Positions 39,196 through 60,556 of a stretch of 64,000 nucleotides of DNA are shown here, in pieces. Position 1 is the stretch's first letter. Each line of letters opens with the position of its first letter. Under the pieces are notes generated by a model. It saw only the letters and a program-made list of their open reading frames with translations. It made no database searches and was not told the DNA's origin. Made by a program: the position numbers and the translations under genes. Origin of the DNA: a virus; the UHGV virus genome UHGV-0178594; one strand, 5' to 3'.

Positions 39196-39218
39196 TGTTA
39201 GAAAATTAATTTATCAAT
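39196..39218. promoter_or_regulatory. Operator-like element TGTTAGAAAATTAATTTATCAAT overlapping the ref stop codon
   Basis: Nearly identical to the element overlapping the dre stop codon at 58095. Confidence 0.4.
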
Positions 39219-39823
39219 TCAGTCACCATCTGATACAACGTCATTTCATCAGCATTGTGCCGCCTGAAATCTGCTTTGCCGCCTATTTTTCCATCAGCAT
39301 GAACAGGAACCAACCAGGGGTATTGCTCGCGGATCTCTGCTGGCGCTGCGTGTTGATGGTGCCATTTACACAAAGGGAGGACGTATTTATGCGCGTTCTC
39401 TGCTGTTCTCCCGAAGATGTGGTGCAGGGATACCACAGGGCTATGCTGTCCGTGCATATGGCAGGCAATGCAGGGGAGAGCACCGATGGCAGTTTGTATC
39501 CGGCGCTCATCTGCTGTGAGTGTTCTGCCTTTCAGGCCGCGTGACGCGCGAGTTTTTTTGACAGGAGCAGAAGCGGCCTTCTCTTTTCTTCGCTGTTCAT
39601 ATTGCTTCGCTTTTTCAATTTTCTTTTGCCGATATTCAGGCGATGCGGCTTTTTCTCGCGCACGCTGCTGCTGGCGTTGAGCTTGCTGAAGACGCTTTGC
39701 CCTTTGTTCCTCCCGCCATTTCGGATCAGCCAGTTTTTGCAGGGCTTTTTGTGTCTGTTTCTCCCAATAGCTTTGCTTCATAGAAATACCCGGTTTGTCT
39801 ACATCGCCGCTATGGTTGATCAA
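39206..39823 (-). CDS. ref: Ref-like HNH endonuclease (recombination enhancement function)
   Basis: K/R/Q-rich disordered N-terminal ~80 aa followed by HNH-type core ..CIACHMHG..HHIFGR..CKWHH..; matches the described architecture of P1 Ref. Confidence 0.6.
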   Translation of the reverse strand: MINHSGDVDKPGISMKQSYWEKQTQKALQKLADPKWREEQRAKRLQQAQRQQQRAREKAASPEYRQKKIEKAKQYEQRRKEKAASAPVKKTRASRGLKGRTLTADERRIQTAIGALPCIACHMHGQHSPVVSLHHIFGRTAENAHKYVLPLCKWHHQHAAPAEIREQYPWLVPVHADGKIGGKADFRRHNADEMTLYQMVTELIN

Positions 39824-52743: not shown

Positions 52744-53011
52744 ACTACAGACGCGTGTAGAGGAACTTGAAAAAGAGAACACTGGCCTCAAAAAAATGCT
52801 GGCACGGGCAGAAAGGGAGTTATCTGGCAAACTTCTGCCAGAAGAACTGCCACCAGCAGATATACCAAAGCGAGTGTCTCGGTGGATGAAGTCTTTTTGT
52901 TTGCCGTGGGAGGCGTTTTGGTGCTACGACCATCGCAGATGGTGTGATGAACTTGATAGCAGTTTTCCCTACTTTGCGGAAGGTAACACCTGCCCTCAAT
53001 GCAGGGGATAG
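52715..53011 (+). CDS. Hypothetical protein with coiled coil and Cys-rich C-terminus
   Basis: 98-aa ORF. Confidence 0.3.
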   Translation: MRRVMPTKAELQTRVEELEKENTGLKKMLARAERELSGKLLPEELPPADIPKRVSRWMKSFCLPWEAFWCYDHRRWCDELDSSFPYFAEGNTCPQCRG

Positions 53012-53346
53012 CATTTAACGAAATCGATCACCCTATCCTGAACTTCGGAAAGAAGGTATTTTTCACGAGCCAGGACGTCAGGATATTGACGTTCTGGCCT
53101 TACCAGATGCCGGAGCTTCCCATTAAGCAGAATGGCCTCAGAAAACACTTTTACGCTGTGCTTTATCCCCTCTGTTTCACTTTTCAGCGTCAAAATAAAG
53201 CGCAATTGCTTGTTAGCCTGATTCAGATTCAATACCCGAATTTGCAGTTCGTCTATGCTATTTCGCAATGGGATTGATGCCACCACACTGGTGCAGTCTC
53301 TGATTGTCTGAATTGAACGGCTAACATTGAGAACGTTATTGTGCAT
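52996..53346 (-). CDS. Paralog of the lxr-position protein, encoded on the opposite strand
   Basis: 116 aa; shares ..RS.QTIR..T.VV.S.P.. pattern and length with 53654-54004. Confidence 0.3.
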   Translation of the reverse strand: MHNNVLNVSRSIQTIRDCTSVVASIPLRNSIDELQIRVLNLNQANKQLRFILTLKSETEGIKHSVKVFSEAILLNGKLRHLVRPERQYPDVLAREKYLLSEVQDRVIDFVKCYPLH

Positions 53347-53378: not shown

Positions 53379-53651
53379 GTGTCAGATCGAAATATAGCAG
53401 CTAAAAGCAAGGAAGAGCGAGACAAGGTGAACGTAGACCTTGCCGCCAGCGGCGTTGCTTACAAAGAACGGCTGAATATACCTGTGATTGCAGAGCAGGT
53501 GGCCCGTGAGCAACCGGAAAACCTGCGCGCCTATTTCATGGAACGGCTACGGCACTACCGGCTGTTAAGCCTCCAGTTGCCAAAAGGGAGCGATCCGGTG
53601 TATCAGAACGAGGATGCGAAAAAAAATAACGGCAAGATGGGGGAGACTTAA
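53379..53651 (+). CDS. hot: DNA polymerase III theta-subunit homologue
   Basis: ..[43 protein letters not shown].. closely matches remembered E. coli HolE. Confidence 0.8.
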
Positions 53652-53653
53652 AC

Positions 53654-54004
53654 ATGCTTAACTATCACGACAACACGCGTTCTATGCAGACAATCCGCAC
53701 CAATACAGCGGTGGTCGATAGCTTTCCTGTACATACTCAAGGCCGTGAAGATACCGTGGAAGTGCGACGCATGTTGTGTCGCCGGTCACCGGGCCACCAG
53801 CACTTCATCGTAACGTTTAAAAGCGATGTAGAGCGCGCCGAGAAAATCTCTAACTCCACATCTCTGGTTAAGCCGTTAGCGGAGGTTATTGTGCGCAACA
53901 ATAAGGCGCGCTTTGTCCTTGAGGAGCATCATTCTGATTTTAATGAAAAAATCGAGTCAAGCATTTTGCAATATATGAATGGCACGTTCACGCCACCAAT
54001 GTGA
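53654..54004 (+). CDS. Hypothetical protein at the position of P1 lxr (between hot and humD)
   Basis: 116-aa ORF; assignment by position only. Confidence 0.35.
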   Translation: MLNYHDNTRSMQTIRTNTAVVDSFPVHTQGREDTVEVRRMLCRRSPGHQHFIVTFKSDVERAEKISNSTSLVKPLAEVIVRNNKARFVLEEHHSDFNEKIESSILQYMNGTFTPPM

Positions 54005-55167: not shown

Positions 55168-55247
55168 AAAGAAGCCCGCTCAACCAAGCGGGCTTCCTAC
55201 TATCACTCAATGATTTTTTCTGCTGTCAGCCAGCTAATTTCTTGCTT

Positions 55248-56045
55248 TTAGGCGTCAGCATCAGCATCCTCTGCTTCCACATCTGCCGCGACTTCATCGG
55301 ACTGTTCTTCTTTGGCCTGTTCTGCAATCGCCGCACGGCATTTCGCCCTGGCTGTAGCGATGGCCTCAACTTTCACGTCATTAGGAATACTTGAGGTGAC
55401 ATACATATCCAGTTCTTCAGCACGGAATACTGTTTTGTCCAGGAATTCATCAAGCATCCAGGTTAAGGAAAAGTCGCAGGAAATCAGCTCTACTTCGCCT
55501 TCCGCGCCGTTTGGGAAATGGATAAACATCTGCTTGCCCAAGCCAAGCACGCGACAAGCAGCCATCATTACTGCAAGTTCCAGGTCTTTGTTTTCACCTG
55601 CTACTGGTTGATCCACACCAGTAATAGTGCCGTTCAAATGGATATTATATGGCTGATATTTAGAGATGCGTTCTACACGCCATGTGCCGGTTAAGGTTCC
55701 CTGGCGGAAGATTATTGGCGTGACCGAAAGCGACAGCTCTCGAATGAGTTGTTGTGCTATGGCTGGGTCATACAGGGGATCTAACGCGATGCATCCATAA
55801 GACTGCGCCAGTTCAAACAATTCTTCCTGTGTGCACTGAATGTCTCTTGCCGTAATAAAACGTCTGACTCCCGTTTTTCCGTCACGCCAGATAGCAATGC
55901 CATTCTCACTATCTAACTCTTCGTCTAAACCCAGGTATGTAAGGATGGTTCGCTCAATGGTGGCAAAGGGCAGGGACATATCATCGTTTACATCCACCAG
56001 CAGGCCGTTACGCAGGCGATATTGAATGTTTTTGGTATTTTCCAC
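55248..56045 (-). CDS. Hypothetical protein with poly-acidic C-terminal tail
   Basis: 265 aa ending ..EEQSDEVAADVEAEDADADA. Confidence 0.3.
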   Translation of the reverse strand: MENTKNIQYRLRNGLLVDVNDDMSLPFATIERTILTYLGLDEELDSENGIAIWRDGKTGVRRFITARDIQCTQEELFELAQSYGCIALDPLYDPAIAQQLIRELSLSVTPIIFRQGTLTGTWRVERISKYQPYNIHLNGTITGVDQPVAGENKDLELAVMMAACRVLGLGKQMFIHFPNGAEGEVELISCDFSLTWMLDEFLDKTVFRAEELDMYVTSSIPNDVKVEAIATARAKCRAAIAEQAKEEQSDEVAADVEAEDADADA

Positions 56046-56051
56046 GTTAAA

Positions 56052-56702
56052 TCACTCCACAACAAACCAGTCACAGGCCAGTAAATCATCCACAGACGGC
56101 AACCAAACGCTGTCCATATTTTGTGCATCTTTCAATACAAAATGGTCACCATAAGGAACGTGAATGCCGTGTAAATTGACGCTTCCAGCGAGAACTAACC
56201 AGCAGAATTGCTTTTCGCCTTTCCACTCGCGTCGGGCAACTTTCTTGCCTTCCTTCAACCACATTAGCGCATCAGAGAAGTCGGCTGCTTCAAGGTCGAT
56301 TTCTTCTTGCTGGGTGGTGATGCCACCAGCAGAAATAGTTACGCTCCCAGTAAGATTAATCATTACGCCGTTGTCATCCGTAATGATGACCGTGGTTCCA
56401 TTTTTGGAGGCGTCGTTAACCAGGCCATAGCATTCCTCAAATGGTTTCTCCGGGGCATAGAACAGATAACCGTTTTCATAAACGATCAGATACCCGCCAG
56501 TTTTTGGTCGGTGTTTTTGTAAAAACATTGCGTCAACACAAACTGTTGCCCCTTTTGGTTCAACGAGTTCGATGCAGCCCCAAAGTGGGGCATCAGTTAC
56601 TCCGAAAATAACAACATTTTTGATTTTCGATGCACTAACGTTTTTGTGAGCTTTGTATTTGGGAAGGAACTTAAAAAGCTCTTTCGTTGGCATGTTATTC
56701 AT
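56052..56702 (-). CDS. Protein with C-terminal DUF2829-like domain
   Basis: ..FSDALMWLKEGKKVARREWKG..WLP..DLLACDWFV.. resembles the DUF2829 phage domain (from memory). Confidence 0.4.
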   Translation of the reverse strand: MNNMPTKELFKFLPKYKAHKNVSASKIKNVVIFGVTDAPLWGCIELVEPKGATVCVDAMFLQKHRPKTGGYLIVYENGYLFYAPEKPFEECYGLVNDASKNGTTVIITDDNGVMINLTGSVTISAGGITTQQEEIDLEAADFSDALMWLKEGKKVARREWKGEKQFCWLVLAGSVNLHGIHVPYGDHFVLKDAQNMDSVWLPSVDDLLACDWFVVE

Positions 56703-56716
56703 AGCCTTTCCTCTAC

Positions 56717-57211
56717 TTAAAACTTTGCGTACTGAAGCGGTGTACGCTTGATTTCAATGCGGTCTTCCGATGTGCTACCAAAGCCACCAGCACCTCGCTC
56801 TGTTTCATCGAGTTCATCAACTTCTACCAGCGATACCGGTTCAACACGCTCAAAAATGCCTTGCATGACCGCCATTCCTGGCTTGAGGCAAACGCCTTCA
56901 CCACCGGGATCTGTAATCAGTTTTGCTTTGATTTCACCGCGATAATCGGAGTCGATAATTCCTACGCAGTTAGCCAGGCGCGTATGCTTTTTGCAGCCCA
57001 ATCCGGAACGAGGATAAAGTTTCAGACACCAGCCAGGAGGGATCGCCATAGCGAGGCCGGTATGCACCCACCAGCTTGAGGAAATAGCGCCGTTGCTATT
57101 GATACCTGGCGTTATTTCAACAGCAATAAAATCCATCGCCGCCGATCCGGCGGTGGCGTAAACGGGGAGTCTTGCCGCCGGATGAAGGCGTTTCACTTTC
57201 ACGTTAATCAT
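56717..57211 (-). CDS. dut: dUTP pyrophosphatase
   Basis: dUTPase motifs ..ATAGSAAMDF.., ..PRSGLG.., ..GIIDSDYRGE.., ..GGFGSTS.. Confidence 0.85.
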   Translation of the reverse strand: MINVKVKRLHPAARLPVYATAGSAAMDFIAVEITPGINSNGAISSSWWVHTGLAMAIPPGWCLKLYPRSGLGCKKHTRLANCVGIIDSDYRGEIKAKLITDPGGEGVCLKPGMAVMQGIFERVEPVSLVEVDELDETERGAGGFGSTSEDRIEIKRTPLQYAKF

Positions 57212-57696
57212 TGCTTTTTAGCTCTCCGGGTAAATGTATAAATCCGGCGTTTGATATGCGGAGCGGTCGGAACGGAGACGCAGGTATTCTCGATAACACC
57301 TTGTTCCTCCAGCGATCGCACAGCACGCAAGAACTGTGATGCATCACCACCGCCAGACAGCCAGAATTTGCGGGCATAGACGCTGCCATTACGGATAATT
57401 TCTGCGATCACCCGCGCTTGCGTCTGGCTTTCTCGATAGCCAAAGAGTTCTCTTGCCTCTCCTTGTGGGATAGCCAACTGATAGCCTTTCCCGCTACGGT
57501 GACGGACAAAACCGTGAGCAATGAGGTTCTTCAGCTCATTTCGGGTGCGGATACACCCGTACTCAGGGAACTGTGTGTTGATATCACCAGGCTTATGCCA
57601 TTCATCAGGACTATCAGCCAGGAGGGACAGAAGTTTCCCTGACAGCTCAGGATTAGTGGTTGGATAGCAGTTCAGGGATGGGTAGTAAGTTTTCAT
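57208..57696 (-). CDS. Hypothetical protein
   Basis: 162-aa ORF with 4-bp overlaps on both sides. Confidence 0.3.
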   Translation of the reverse strand: MKTYYPSLNCYPTTNPELSGKLLSLLADSPDEWHKPGDINTQFPEYGCIRTRNELKNLIAHGFVRHRSGKGYQLAIPQGEARELFGYRESQTQARVIAEIIRNGSVYARKFWLSGGGDASQFLRAVRSLEEQGVIENTCVSVPTAPHIKRRIYTFTRRAKKQ

Positions 57697-58037
57697 TTGC
57701 GCCCCCTTGCCGGATAGCGCCCGGCATTTGCATCAGGAGCAATGAAGCCGCTGGTGGGGCGAGTGAAAACATGGTTAATTTTCTCGGTCATAGCGCGATA
57801 ATTTTCCTGATAGTGGGCCAGGAGTTTTTCAGCAGCAATGACGGTTACTTTCCGGACGTAGCGTTCAGCTTCCTCCAGATTTCGCCAGTTTTTTTCGAGG
57901 GTAAACACGGGAACGGCATCAAGTCCGGTCATAACACCGAACACCACGACCGCCTGGTCGCGCTTAACGCCCGCAGTGAAGGTTATGGTGTAACCGTCAA
58001 CAGTGAAGCGTTTTGATTCCGTAATACGATTGTGCAA
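57693..58037 (-). CDS. Hypothetical protein downstream of the recombinase gene (cra-like position)
   Basis: 114-aa ORF. Confidence 0.3.
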   Translation of the reverse strand: MHNRITESKRFTVDGYTITFTAGVKRDQAVVVFGVMTGLDAVPVFTLEKNWRNLEEAERYVRKVTVIAAEKLLAHYQENYRAMTEKINHVFTRPTSGFIAPDANAGRYPARGRK

Positions 58038-58094
58038 AGTACCCTCCGCAATAGGCGAGGGTACTTTACATTAAAATGCACTGTCTAAAAAGAT

Positions 58095-58117
58095 TGTTAG
58101 AAAATTAATTTATGAAT
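58095..58117. promoter_or_regulatory. Operator-like element TGTTAGAAAATTAATTTATGAAT overlapping the dre stop codon
   Basis: 19 of 23 positions identical, in one run, to the element at 39196. Confidence 0.4.
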
Positions 58118-59138
58118 CCATCAGGCGACTATTTGCACCAACGGATGCCCCGCTACGGCGCAAATATCGCATAAGTGTTTCGGGCTTTTTCCATGTGCCT
58201 TCCTGCATGATCTCGACCATTGACACCTGTTTCTCAGCCATATCAATTGCCGCACCAACACGCGCACTATGGCCTGTCCACGTCCGGTATCTTCCTTTGT
58301 TCGGCGTGGCATCTCGTTTGTTCAGCAACCCCCAGGCATCGCTGAATATTTTCTCCATTGCAGGTGCAGTAAGGGGAGTTGTCGTGATTCTGGCCTTATT
58401 ACTGCGGTGTATTGGCGGGAATAGCACCGCGTCCGGATGTTGACGAAGTCCGGACACCTCCAGCCAGTCGTTCAGTACGGCGGTAGTGCAACGAGAAAGC
58501 ACCTTATCAAGTCCGGCGGCGGTCGTGATGGTCTTCGTGTGCGAAATATGCAGCGTTACAGTGTCACCTGTTTGGTCCAGATCTCCGACGCGGATGCGCG
58601 AGATTTCTGACATACGCATCAGGGTATTGTATGCCACGAAGAGAAACGCCCGATTGCGCAGGTCCACCAGCCGCTCGGAACGGGACAGCAATACGTCGAG
58701 CAATTTCAGATCATCCCACCGCAACGGTATAGCCTGGCCTGTTCGCTCGCCTTTTTCCGTTGCCGCTTCGCGCCGGATGCGCCGCATGGCCAGAGACACA
58801 CTTTTATCGTCCGACAGCGGCGGGAGGCCACATTGCGAAAGCAGCATGTTAAGCATGGCATAGTGCTTATCAATGGTGGTCGAAGCCAGATCGGCCTCAT
58901 GCAACTGGAGAAGATACTCGCGGGCCATTTCCGACGTAATCGGGAACCAGGGGCGCTGGCGCGAGTTACACCACCGCGCCCAGGAATGAAACACCAGACG
59001 GAGATCACGAAGTGTATTTGGGGCATAAGCTCCCTGGTCGTTCATGAACTGCATAAAGTTTTTTGCAGCTTCCTGGTATTCGGTGCCAATATCGCGCAGA
59101 AAACCACCAGAACCGCCGGAGATAACTAGTTCACCCAT
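58110..59138 (-). CDS. dre: Cre-family tyrosine recombinase (Dre-type)
   Basis: Collinear with remembered Cre (..WFP..DVR.YLL.LQ..GLA..TI..H...LNML.., ..RNLAF..AYNTL.R..EI.RIRV.D.., ..WSGHSARVGAA.DMA..GVS..EIMQ.G.W..); adjacent exact rox site. Confidence 0.85.
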   Translation of the reverse strand: MGELVISGGSGGFLRDIGTEYQEAAKNFMQFMNDQGAYAPNTLRDLRLVFHSWARWCNSRQRPWFPITSEMAREYLLQLHEADLASTTIDKHYAMLNMLLSQCGLPPLSDDKSVSLAMRRIRREAATEKGERTGQAIPLRWDDLKLLDVLLSRSERLVDLRNRAFLFVAYNTLMRMSEISRIRVGDLDQTGDTVTLHISHTKTITTAAGLDKVLSRCTTAVLNDWLEVSGLRQHPDAVLFPPIHRSNKARITTTPLTAPAMEKIFSDAWGLLNKRDATPNKGRYRTWTGHSARVGAAIDMAEKQVSMVEIMQEGTWKKPETLMRYLRRSGASVGANSRLMDS

Positions 59139-59290
59139 GAAACTATTAAACCTCTATATACAGATAACGCTACGTGAAAAATAGAAAACTGACAGGGTAG
59201 TTATAAGTTAATTTTCAAAATTCAAGCCTTTGATTCGAGGCATGATTTTTCATCCTTGTCAATACTGCCAGTTTACTGGAGATTATAGCC

Positions 59291-59322
59291 TAACTTTAAA
59301 TAATGCCAATTATTTAAAGTTA
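59291..59322. other. rox: rox recombination site TAACTTTAAATAATGCCAATTATTTAAAGTTA (14-bp inverted arms, 4-bp spacer)
   Basis: Perfect inverted arms read directly; sequence matches the rox site as I remember it from the Dre/rox system. Confidence 0.85.
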
Positions 59323-59403: not shown

Positions 59404-59506
59404 ACATTTTCTAATAGGAACAATCAAAAAAAAGCGGTTTTATCCTTTACTCACCTTGTTATTCAGCATAAATTTGTCACAGGACTTTTATGTTAGAAAA
59501 CTAAAT
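59404..59506. promoter_or_regulatory. Two operator-like sites (ACATTTTCTAATAGG at 59404; ATGTTAGAAAACTAAAT at 59490) upstream of the c1-position gene
   Basis: Half-site variants of the recurring motif. Confidence 0.4.
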
Positions 59507-59518
59507 CGAGTAGGAATA

Positions 59519-60556
59519 ATGAGTAAGAAGTCGATCGAGAATGAGTACAAACGGTTCCTGCAAACCGCTGAACGGTGGAAAGAGCTGGTGGTCGCAAACT
59601 CTGTTTTCCATGATACCAGTTATGTTGGCGAGGAATTTCGCCATGTTGCATTAACACATGATCCGGCTGTATTAGAAGAAGCTGAAAAATGCATAGCCGA
59701 ATGGAAAGCCTTTGTTGATCTGTGTCGCAAGGATGATGACAAAGCCTCAAACATTGTTGAGTCGGTTTATTTACCGATCCCATTCATTGTTGAGGATACT
59801 AATCAGAGTACGCACATCGTTATGCAAAGCGCAACCACAACGAGAACATTTACGCGCGAAGACCTGCTGAAAAAATACGATAAAACTATAAAGAAAAGCA
59901 TGAAAAACAGGATATTTTCACAGGTTGTCGGTGCGCTTGAAGAAGAACGCAGATTCTTCGCCGCTGAACGTGAGGGCGAGGTATACCGCGCAAGAAAAGA
60001 AGGTTATACCGATGTGGTGATTACCACCAATATTGAGGGCAACAATGGACTTTCACGCTTCAGAGTGGGTACGCACGGTGCGCTGATCTTTGCAAAAAAA
60101 GCAAACACAGAGATTCCCGTTGTTAACAACGTTGGTGAGCGCCGCACCCTTACCATTTACACTGGCATTAAACCGCTTCCGTGCGGACTTCTCGGCGAAT
60201 TTGACCTTTATCGGGTTCGTGATCTGGAAAAGCAGCAGCCAAGCTACGTCGTGAAGTCATATATCCTGAGAAACATTGATATCCGCAATCAGAGTTTAAA
60301 AAACAAATCAGATAAAATGCTGGCCGAAGCCGATCCAGCCATACACCAGATCGTAAGCCGGAAAATTCAAGAGGCTAAAGATGCAATGGCAAGGCTGGAT
60401 AAAATGGACCTGGAACTACTGGAAGTTATGATTGCCTCCGGCGATGACCTGACAGGCATCCGCCTTACTGAAGCCAGGAAAAAATACGGTAAAAGCGTTG
60501 AAGAACGCTATGGGTACACATTCACACAAACGATGTACGCGGCAAAACTCTGGTAA
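59519..60556 (+). CDS. Immunity repressor candidate by position (c1 locus between rox and pacB); family not recognised
   Basis: 345 aa from ATG 59519 (track lists a TTG-initiated 59456 start); convergent with pacB as c1 is in P1; longer than P1 C1, so identity unproven. Confidence 0.35.
   Translation: MSKKSIENEYKRFLQTAERWKELVVANSVFHDTSYVGEEFRHVALTHDPAVLEEAEKCIAEWKAFVDLCRKDDDKASNIVESVYLPIPFIVEDTNQSTHIVMQSATTTRTFTREDLLKKYDKTIKKSMKNRIFSQVVGALEEERRFFAAEREGEVYRARKEGYTDVVITTNIEGNNGLSRFRVGTHGALIFAKKANTEIPVVNNVGERRTLTIYTGIKPLPCGLLGEFDLYRVRDLEKQQPSYVVKSYILRNIDIRNQSLKNKSDKMLAEADPAIHQIVSRKIQEAKDAMARLDKMDLELLEVMIASGDDLTGIRLTEARKKYGKSVEERYGYTFTQTMYAAKLW

What the first reader, a model, noticed from the sequence alone, without database searches (positions are those of the whole stretch)
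55248..58037. dut, DUF2829-like and poly-acidic-tail genes downstream of the recombinase, where P1 has cra-ref
A dUTPase, a DUF2829-like protein and a protein with an acidic C-terminal tail (a possible DNA mimic) occupy the slot after the recombinase, while ref sits 19 kb away. Phage dUTPases can have regulatory moonlighting roles, and the acidic-tail protein could be anti-restriction, but I have no direct evidence.
Basis: inference. Interest (0 to 1): 0.35.

Follow-up and report, generated by a model that had tools for sequence, protein, structure and literature searches.

The report
D6-type accessory operon with Tad2-like sponge
The genes after the recombinase are the standard accessory operon of a D6-type phage-plasmid: an ordinary dUTPase, a probable immune-signal "sponge" of the Tad2 family, and an uncharacterised acidic protein that shows no sign of being a DNA mimic.

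Summary
The ORFs are real and at the stated coordinates. The window is an E. coli D6-like (P1-related) phage-plasmid, 99.7% identical to plasmid NZ_LR890273.1. It carries a Dre recombinase and an exact rox site.

Five tightly packed minus-strand genes follow dre:
- two small basic proteins of unknown function
- a canonical trimeric dUTPase
- a 216-aa two-domain protein
- a 265-aa P1 IsaA homologue

Phage D6 has the same gene order, so the arrangement is not new.

The DNA-mimic idea for the acidic-tail protein has no support. The tail is variable and sometimes absent, and the fold matches no known mimic. A moonlighting role for the dUTPase has no support either.

Verdict: an anti-defence role is plausible, but through a different protein and mechanism than proposed. 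Novelty is low.

The parts
59291..59322 (.). rox recombination site (TAACTTTAAATAATGCCAATTATTTAAAGTTA). A promoter-like site on the minus strand (59309-59282, TTGGCA-16-TATAAT, 11 of 12 matches) overlaps it.
   Evidence: Perfect 15-nt inverted repeat with a 4-nt spacer. Promoter scan. D6 annotates the rox half-site at the equivalent place. That this sequence equals the published rox sequence rests on my own recall.
58110..59138 (-). Dre, a Cre-like tyrosine recombinase (342 aa).
   Evidence: PF00589 and PF02899. 93.6% amino-acid identity to D6 Dre. 42% identity to P1 Cre.
58033..58070 (-). Stable RNA hairpin in the dre-orf114 spacer. It buries the GGAGGG Shine-Dalgarno sequence and the TTG start codon of the 114-aa ORF.
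   Evidence: -23.5 kcal/mol, z -4.84, 0 of 200 shuffles fold as well. Conserved in D6 with one change that keeps a G-U pair.
57693..58037 (-). 114-aa basic protein (pI 9.8) of unknown function. It is the D6 orf117 homologue.
   Evidence: phrog_1968, E 4e-44. No Pfam, NCBIfam or PDB match. A positional homologue exists in a distant P1-like plasmid (L006, E 5e-10).
57208..57696 (-). 162-aa basic protein (pI 9.7) of unknown function. It is the D6 orf116 homologue. It overlaps both neighbouring genes by 4 nt.
   Evidence: phrog_6669, E 2e-86. No Pfam or PDB match. 48% identical to the homologue at the same position in L009.
56717..57211 (-). Homotrimer-type dUTPase (164 aa). Motifs: I 21-27, II 67-70, III 84-92, IV 112-117, V 139-146. 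A 16-aa C-terminal extension follows motif V.
   Evidence: PF00692, TIGR00576 and NF001862, the last two above their curated cutoffs. End-to-end alignment to solved bacterial dUTPases. Motif positions.
56052..56702 (-). Two-domain Tad2-family protein (216 aa). Residues 1-98 form a Dec-like OB fold. Residues ~99-134 are a low-confidence beta-rich linker. Residues 135-216 form the Tad2 (DUF2829) sponge domain.
55248..56045 (-). IsaA-family acidic protein (265 aa, pI 4.39) with a variable acidic C-terminal tail (~241-265). Function unknown.
   Evidence: phrog_2326, E 4e-125. 47% identical to P1 IsaA. The family has only 32 representatives among 1.84 billion. Model pLDDT 83. No informative fold match.
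55174..55189 (-). Terminator-like hairpin after the last gene of the row. It is a weak consensus match only.
   Evidence: Terminator-like sites are not enriched over shuffled sequence in this region, so this assignment is tentative.

Best explanation
Window 55248-58037 is the distal part of the dre-proximal accessory operon typical of D6-like phage-plasmids. The five genes are co-oriented and separated by -4, -4, +14 and +6 nt. They are probably transcribed from the promoter-like site at rox/dre.

The dUTPase is a conventional house-cleaning enzyme. It hydrolyses dUTP so that uracil stays out of the element's DNA.

The 216-aa protein is a Tad2-family counter-defence protein. Its C-terminal domain most likely forms the family's homotetramer. 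It would then sequester a nucleotide-derived immune signal, either a Thoeris-type ADPR derivative or a cyclic nucleotide, so that the host effector is never activated.

The identity of the ligand is open for three reasons:
- This allele has Lys in place of the canonical Asn next to the first pocket Trp.
- It has Asp in place of Thr or Gly before the pocket Asp.
- It has a shortened beta2-beta3 insertion.

The N-terminal Dec-like OB domain is an accessory module of unknown role. The IsaA-like protein and the two small basic proteins are conserved neighbours of Cre-like recombinases. Their function is unknown, and none shows a signature of DNA mimicry.

Shown here: gene identities, family membership, synteny and the fold of the Tad2 domain. 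Inferred: operon expression, tetramerisation, sponge activity and the ligand.
For: Synteny and identity with D6:
- D6 has the same gene order.
- 103 plasmids cover at least 80% of the 4.2-kb query.

Operon structure:
- Gene spacing.
- Promoter-like site at rox.

dUTPase:
- Scores exceed the curated cutoffs and all motifs are present.

Tad2 domain:
- Pfam hit of 66.7 bits against a cutoff of 25.
- Sequence hits to four experimentally characterised Tad2 structures.
- W160, W200, S203 and D206 align to SPO1 W25, W73, S76 and D79, and are invariant across relatives and two solved Tad2 proteins.
- The family is shown experimentally to sequester gcADPR, His-ADPR, N7-cADPR, cyclic dinucleotides and cCMP/cUMP.
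- An independent survey reports Tad2 in 93% of D6-like and 56% of P1-like phage-plasmids.

Accessory character:
- P1 isaA is non-essential for lytic growth.
- Lab P1 lacks the Tad2-like gene altogether.
Against: - No experiment exists on this protein or on any P1/D6-family homologue.
- N26 of SPO1 Tad2 (N22 of HgmTad2) contacts the ligand diphosphate. Here it is Lys161, alone among the six sequences aligned. In HgmTad2 the W21A/N22A double mutant loses binding.
- The window's allele is the minority. About 16 of 244 plasmid records are at least 90% identical to it.
- The oligomeric state was not modelled.
- The promoter and terminator calls are consensus matches. Neither kind of site is enriched over shuffled sequence.
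- A strong hairpin occludes the start of the first downstream ORF, so simple read-through expression is not assured.
Confidence: 0.6

Rival explanations
1. One reading: the 265-aa acidic protein, through its acidic tail, is a DNA mimic that blocks restriction enzymes in the manner of Ocr or ArdA.
For: - The protein is acidic throughout: pI 4.39, net -22, and the core residues 1-225 have pI 4.54.
- Many distant family members also carry acidic, Pro- or Gln-rich tails.
- It is adjacent to a counter-defence gene.
- In P1-like phages it follows ssb in an operon under a C1 operator (early expression), close to the dar/ddr antirestriction genes.
- It is non-essential in P1.
Against: - The tail is absent in P0101, P0102, P0104, P0108, P0125 and P0133, and is otherwise not alignable.
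- In the model the tail is a low-confidence helix (pLDDT 54-59).
- The charge density is well below that of Ocr or ArdA (from my own knowledge).
- Only five columns are invariant across the family, and no acidic surface pattern is conserved.
Confidence: 0.08
2. The dUTPase has a regulatory moonlighting role, like the staphylococcal phage Dut proteins that derepress SaPI Stl, or it acts together with Tad2 in counter-defence.
For: - dut and the Tad2-like gene are adjacent, with a 14-nt gap.
- They are fused into one polypeptide in two independent lineages: P0062, and L009:5064-5978 with both domains intact.
- Some Tad2 homologues bind cUMP and cCMP.
Against: - The enzyme aligns end to end with ordinary 150-aa bacterial dUTPases. 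It has no internal insertion, only a 16-aa C-terminal extension.
- All catalytic motifs are intact.
- Fusion of adjacent genes can arise from a simple deletion. In P0062 the junction sits at a GAGG microhomology and truncates motif V.
- The full-text search found no paper that links dUTPase to counter-defence.
- A distant P1-like lineage has the flanking genes without dut or Tad2.
Confidence: 0.07
3. The Tad2-like domain of this allele no longer acts as a signal sponge. It is either degenerate or re-purposed, for example as an oligomerisation or structural module attached to a Dec-like capsid-binding domain.
For: - N-to-K at a ligand contact and a 9-17-residue shorter insertion loop than the common alleles.
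- The N-domain is homologous to a capsid decoration protein.
- A stand-alone homologue sits inside the head gene module of Ralstonia phage GP4.
Against: - The two pocket Trp, the Ser and the Asp are invariant.
- The allele is kept intact at 96-100% identity in about 15 E. coli and Salmonella plasmids.
- Lys can still contact phosphates.
- The family is known to retune its specificity rather than lose binding. One study predicted about 1% of members to be non-binders.
- D6 and P0062 keep the Tad2 domain while losing the OB domain.
Confidence: 0.2

Closest known systems
Escherichia phage D6: dre-orf117-orf116-dut-orf114-orf113 region (NC_050154 / AY753669)
   Same: Identical gene order and orientation, the same rox site and the same neighbouring phd/doc genes. 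Dre is 93.6% identical, dUTPase 86.6%, the 114-aa protein 82.5%, the 162-aa protein 71.6% and the IsaA-like protein 69.8%.
   Different: The D6 Tad2-like protein is 146 aa. It has an in-frame deletion of the OB domain and carries the common WNG/long-loop allele. The window has the full two-domain protein with the WKG/short-loop allele.
Tad2 immune-signal sponges (SPO1 Tad2 8SME, ModTad2 9EIB, HgmTad2/AcrIIA7 8KBI; Pfam PF11195)
   Same: Same domain by sequence and by predicted fold. The pocket residues W, W, S and D are conserved.
   Different: The characterised Tad2 proteins are single-domain proteins of about 90-105 aa. Here the domain follows about 135 residues of Dec-like OB fold plus linker. 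The canonical Asn is Lys and the Thr is Asp. The ligand and oligomeric state are untested.
P1 IsaA (IS1-associated gene A), and the SJ46/RCS47 gp048-isaA pair
   Same: The 265-aa protein is 47% identical to P1 IsaA. In SJ46 a Tad2-like gene 60% identical to the window's lies immediately before isaA, as it does here.
   Different: In P1-like phages the pair follows ssb and is not near cre. Lab P1 has lost the Tad2-like gene. A distant lineage has IsaA without Tad2.
Phage L decoration protein Dec (6E3C)
   Different: Here the domain sits in an accessory operon, fused to a sponge domain. There is no evidence of capsid binding or trimerisation.
DNA-mimic antirestriction proteins (T7 Ocr, ArdA)
   Same: Acidic overall (pI 4.4).
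   Different: No sequence or fold similarity. The tail is not conserved.

Membership tests
Homotrimeric dUTPase (PF00692 / TIGR00576) | Score above the curated family cutoffs | tested here: met
   TIGR00576: 116.8 bits against 102.55. NF001862 equivalog: 116.7 against 103. PF00692: 49.9 against 22.
Homotrimeric dUTPase (PF00692 / TIGR00576) | Five conserved motifs, including the motif III Asp and the motif V RGxxGFGS | tested here: met
   AGSAAMD 21-27, PRSG 67-70, GIIDSDYRG 84-92, GMAVMQ 112-117, RGAGGFGS 139-146. Alignment to solved enzymes.
Homotrimeric dUTPase (PF00692 / TIGR00576) | dUTP hydrolysis | not testable with these tools
   Needs an enzyme assay.
Tad2 sponge family (PF11195) | Domain match by sequence | tested here: met
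   PF11195: 66.7 bits against a cutoff of 25, residues 141-215. ModTad2 E 7.5e-11 and SPO1 Tad2 E 5e-6.
Tad2 sponge family (PF11195) | Tad2 fold (alpha1 plus an antiparallel beta sheet) | tested here: met
Tad2 sponge family (PF11195) | Ligand-pocket residues (SPO1 W25, N26, W73, S76, T78, D79; HgmTad2 W21, N22, G23, W87, S90, T92, D93) | tested here: inconclusive
   W160, G162, W200, S203 and D206 are conserved. The Asn is K161 and the Thr is D205.
Tad2 sponge family (PF11195) | Homotetramer with pockets at the protomer interfaces | not tested
The alpha1 segment IDLEAADFSDALMWLKEGK is nearly invariant.
Tad2 sponge family (PF11195) | Binds and sequesters an immune signalling molecule and relieves the defence | not testable with these tools
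   Needs binding and plaque assays.
DNA-mimic antirestriction proteins (Ocr, ArdA) | Sequence or fold relationship to a known mimic | tested here: not met
DNA-mimic antirestriction proteins (Ocr, ArdA) | A conserved array of surface carboxylates that imitates the DNA backbone | tested here: inconclusive
   The protein is acidic (pI 4.39). However, the tail is variable or absent, and D213 is the only invariant acidic residue across the family. Surface geometry was not analysed.
P1 IsaA family (phrog_2326) | Full-length homology to P1 IsaA | tested here: met
   phrog_2326, E 4e-125. tblastn to P1 isaA at 47% identity over 85% of the length, E 4e-65. Reciprocal hit.
Dre/rox site-specific recombination module of phage D6 | Dre-type recombinase with an adjacent rox site | tested here: met
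   93.6% identity to D6 Dre. Perfect 14-4-14 rox-type palindrome at 59291-59322.
Dec-like OB fold (phage L decoration protein) | Significant profile and fold similarity to the Dec OB domain | tested here: met
Dec-like OB fold (phage L decoration protein) | Capsid binding as a trimer | not testable with these tools
   Genomic context is mixed. Most homologues lie among early or accessory genes. One lies in a head gene module.

The most novel reading that the evidence does not exclude
The roughly 95-residue Dec-like OB domain at the N-terminus of the 216-aa protein has the signature ELPxYKCHKxVxAxKI...KHxPxxGGYLVxYxDGYxSYSPxxxFExGY and has no Pfam family. It may be an uncharacterised counter-defence module in its own right, for example a further immune-signal sponge, or an avidity or oligomerisation module for sponges.

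The case rests on its fusion partners and distribution:
- Tad2 in P1- and D6-like elements and in Klebsiella phage SopranoGao.
- Tad2 plus Sequestin in metagenomic relatives.
- Sequestin alone in the sister phage LASTA, at the same locus as in SopranoGao.
- It also occurs as a stand-alone protein of about 90 aa in Ralstonia, Pseudomonas, Salmonella and E. coli phages.

The same guilt-by-fusion logic was used to discover Sequestin.
Probability: 0.2. Interest if true: 0.6.

Novelty: new member of a known kind. Interest (0 to 1): 0.25.

Why it matters
This result mainly clarifies an annotation. The block is the standard D6 accessory operon, and its only gene with a predictable counter-defence role belongs to the well-studied Tad2 family, which has already been reported in D6- and P1-like phage-plasmids.

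Three modest leads remain:
- P1- and D6-like elements carry at least three mosaic alleles of the Tad2 pocket and loop. They could serve as a natural series for studying ligand retuning in E. coli.
- The Dec-like OB domain is a recurrent fusion partner of two sponge families and has not been characterised.
- IsaA is a narrow orphan family that stays next to Cre-like recombinases, or next to ssb, across diverged P1-like elements.

None of these addresses a long-standing open question.

Tried and rejected
- IsaA function by sequence gave nothing: Pfam, NCBIfam, single-sequence PDB, a family profile against PDB, and Pfam on 28 family members.
- A nuclease reading was rejected. The family has no conserved D...(D/E)xK constellation; only L118, W122, A158, G168 and D213 are invariant.
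- The afdb50 fold library was unavailable.
- The search for related loci failed with the IsaA family alignment. Three distant members used as queries found nothing in viral contigs. The look-up of encoding contigs did work.
- I tested whether Tad2-like and IsaA form an obligate pair. They do not: L006-L008 have IsaA without Tad2 or dut.
- I searched for the P1 C1 operator consensus to test for repressor control. There were no matches within 3 mismatches anywhere in the window.
- A word-indexed search with the N-domain alone returned only close relatives.
- Literature searches that link dUTPase to Tad2 or to counter-defence found nothing relevant.
- The 366-aa gene that some close relatives carry between isaA and doc is unrelated to the window's 366-aa ORF at 59456-60556.
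Full report
**What is there.** The minus strand carries a row of closely spaced ORFs:
- a Cre-like tyrosine recombinase at 58110-59138 (342 aa)
- a 114-aa ORF at 57693-58037
- a 162-aa ORF at 57208-57696
- a dUTPase at 56717-57211 (164 aa)
- a 216-aa ORF at 56052-56702
- a 265-aa ORF at 55248-56045

The spacings are 72, -4, -4, +14 and +6 nt. On the plus strand, hot (53379-53651), humD, phd and doc converge on the far end of the row.

**Origin of the window.** The DNA is 99.7% identical to E. coli plasmid NZ_LR890273.1. It is about 82% identical to phage D6 over 89% of a 4.2-kb query. Of the plasmid records, 103 cover at least 80% of that query. D6 is annotated with the same order: recombinase, orf117, orf116, dUTPase, a DUF2829 protein and orf113 ("similar to P1 isaA"), next to phd/doc. 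The D6 rox half-site lies beyond the recombinase.

The window has a perfect 14-4-14 rox-type palindrome at 59291-59322, and its recombinase is 93.6% identical to D6 Dre. The element is therefore a D6-like phage-plasmid, and the slot after the recombinase is the normal D6 arrangement.

In P1, cra lies upstream of cre, and c8, ref and mat follow it. The window's ref homologue is at 39209-39655.

**dUTPase.** The protein scores above the curated cutoffs of TIGR00576 and of the equivalog model NF001862. It has all five motifs. It aligns end to end with solved 150-aa bacterial dUTPases and has no internal insertion, only 16 extra C-terminal residues. Nothing suggests a function other than dUTP hydrolysis.

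Two relatives encode dUTPase-Tad2 fusion proteins:
- P0062 has a junction at a GAGG microhomology that truncates motif V.
- L009:5064-5978 has both domains intact.

These fusions show that the two genes are co-expressed neighbours. On their own they do not establish a shared function.

Tad2 proteins are homotetramers that sequester immune signals. Reported ligands are gcADPR, His-ADPR, N7-cADPR, cyclic dinucleotides and cCMP/cUMP, depending on the homologue.

The published contacts are SPO1 W25, N26, W73, S76, T78 and D79, and HgmTad2 W21, N22, G23, W87, S90, T92 and D93. The window protein compares as follows:
- W160, G162, W200, S203 and D206 are kept.
- K161 replaces the Asn.
- D205 replaces the Thr.

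**Tad2 alleles in relatives.** Relatives in P1- and D6-like plasmids are mosaic. There are three alleles of the pocket and beta2-beta3 loop region. The window's WKG/short-loop allele is the minority: about 16 of 244 plasmid records are at least 90% identical to it, and 203 fall at 60-80%. Family membership is therefore secure. Sponge activity is likely but unproven, and the ligand cannot be named.

A 2025 preprint already reports Tad2 in 93% of D6-like and 56% of P1-like phage-plasmids. This is not a new observation for the element type.

The domain is dispensable for keeping Tad2. D6 has an in-frame deletion of it, and P0062 lacks it.

Its fusion partners and contexts are:
- Tad2 plus Sequestin (PF21825) in metagenomic relatives
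- Sequestin alone in Klebsiella phage LASTA
- Tad2 in the sister phage SopranoGao, at the same locus
- stand-alone in several phages, mostly among early or accessory genes, and once inside a head gene module

Sequestin itself was discovered through its fusion to Tad2 and Acb4. The same reasoning makes this OB domain a candidate counter-defence module. That is speculation, and I put its probability at about 0.2.

**The acidic-tail protein.** It is a homologue of P1 IsaA (47% identity). The family is narrow, with 32 representatives among 1.84 billion clustered proteins. P1 isaA is non-essential.

The protein is acidic overall (pI 4.39, net -22). The tail is missing in 3 of the 10 close homologues, and in the wider family it is variable low-complexity sequence. 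In the model it is a low-confidence helix.

**Context in other elements.**
- In P1-like phages (SJ46, RCS47, Ro157c2YLVW) the Tad2-like and isaA genes sit together after ssb. In P1 that operon has a C1 operator.
- Lab P1 has lost the Tad2-like gene, and its annotated 320-aa IsaA starts in an upstream ORF.
- In the more distant P1-like plasmids L006-L008 the order is recombinase, three further genes (91 aa, 326 aa and a 106-aa homologue of the 114-aa ORF), a 176-aa ORF (only weakly similar to the 162-aa ORF), IsaA, DUF4406 and ParDE. There is no dut or Tad2.
- In L009 the order is recombinase, a 162-aa homologue, the dUTPase-Tad2 fusion and IsaA.

The conserved core next to Cre-like recombinases is thus the small basic proteins plus IsaA. 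The dut and Tad2-like genes look like an inserted accessory pair.

**Expression.** A near-consensus sigma-70-like site overlaps rox upstream of dre. A stable hairpin in the dre-orf114 spacer (-23.5 kcal/mol, z -4.8) buries the Shine-Dalgarno sequence and the TTG start of the 114-aa ORF. It is conserved in D6. No P1-type C1 operator occurs in the window. Regulation is therefore unresolved.

**Verdict.** The arrangement and the presence of Tad2 are already known for D6-like elements, so interest is low. The Dec-like OB fusion partner and the allelic series are modest leads.

Noticed in passing
window 59291-59322 (and 59282-59309, minus strand): A perfect rox-type site, TAACTTTAAATAATGCCAATTATTTAAAGTTA, overlapped by a near-consensus promoter-like site (TTGGCA-16-TATAAT) that faces dre. 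The recombinase is 93.6% identical to D6 Dre.
   Followed up: yes
window ~58033-58070, minus strand: A stable RNA hairpin (-23.5 kcal/mol, z -4.8) in the dre-orf114 spacer sequesters the GGAGGG Shine-Dalgarno sequence and the TTG start codon of the 114-aa ORF. It is conserved in D6 with one change that keeps a G-U pair. It may be a translational control element.
   Followed up: partly
P0062; L009:5064-5978: Natural dUTPase-Tad2 fusion proteins occur in two lineages of related phage-plasmids. One arose by deletion at a GAGG microhomology and truncates dUTPase motif V. The other keeps both domains intact.
   Followed up: partly
L003:4570-5532 (P1 isaA) compared with L004:3149-3994 (SJ46 gp048): Lab phage P1 lacks the Tad2-like gene that its wild relatives carry between ssb and isaA. 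The annotated 320-aa P1 IsaA begins with about 55 residues that match the start of the annotated SJ46 gp048 ORF, so the true IsaA start is probably internal.
   Followed up: partly
L012:1486-2361 (Klebsiella phage LASTA gp52) and L011:2986-3582 (SopranoGao gp55): At the same locus in two sister phages, the Dec-like OB domain is fused to Sequestin (PF21825) in one and to Tad2 in the other. The OB domain is a recurrent N-terminal partner of sponge domains.
   Followed up: partly
L005:704-1804 (plasmid NZ_CP104667.1): Several relatives, including near-identical ones, carry an extra 366-aa gene inserted between the isaA-like gene and doc. By eye its sequence resembles a terminase large subunit, but no search was run on it. 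The gene is absent from the window.
   Followed up: no
window 52996-53346 (-) and 53654-54004 (+): Two paralogous 116-aa ORFs (35% identity, E 3e-9) of unknown function flank the hot (DNA polymerase III theta-like) gene in divergent orientation.
   Followed up: partly
whole window: The P1 C1 operator consensus ATTGCTCTAATAAATTT has no match within 3 mismatches anywhere in the 64 kb. The repressor of this element presumably recognises a different operator.
   Followed up: no
L006:6838-7173: In a distant P1-like plasmid lineage, IsaA is followed by a DUF4406 protein and a ParDE toxin-antitoxin pair, where the window has phd/doc. The gene row after the recombinase ends at an addiction module in both lineages.
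   Followed up: no
window 59456-60556 (+): A 366-aa ORF runs divergently from dre on the other side of rox and has no Pfam match. It is not detectably a C1-type repressor.
   Followed up: no
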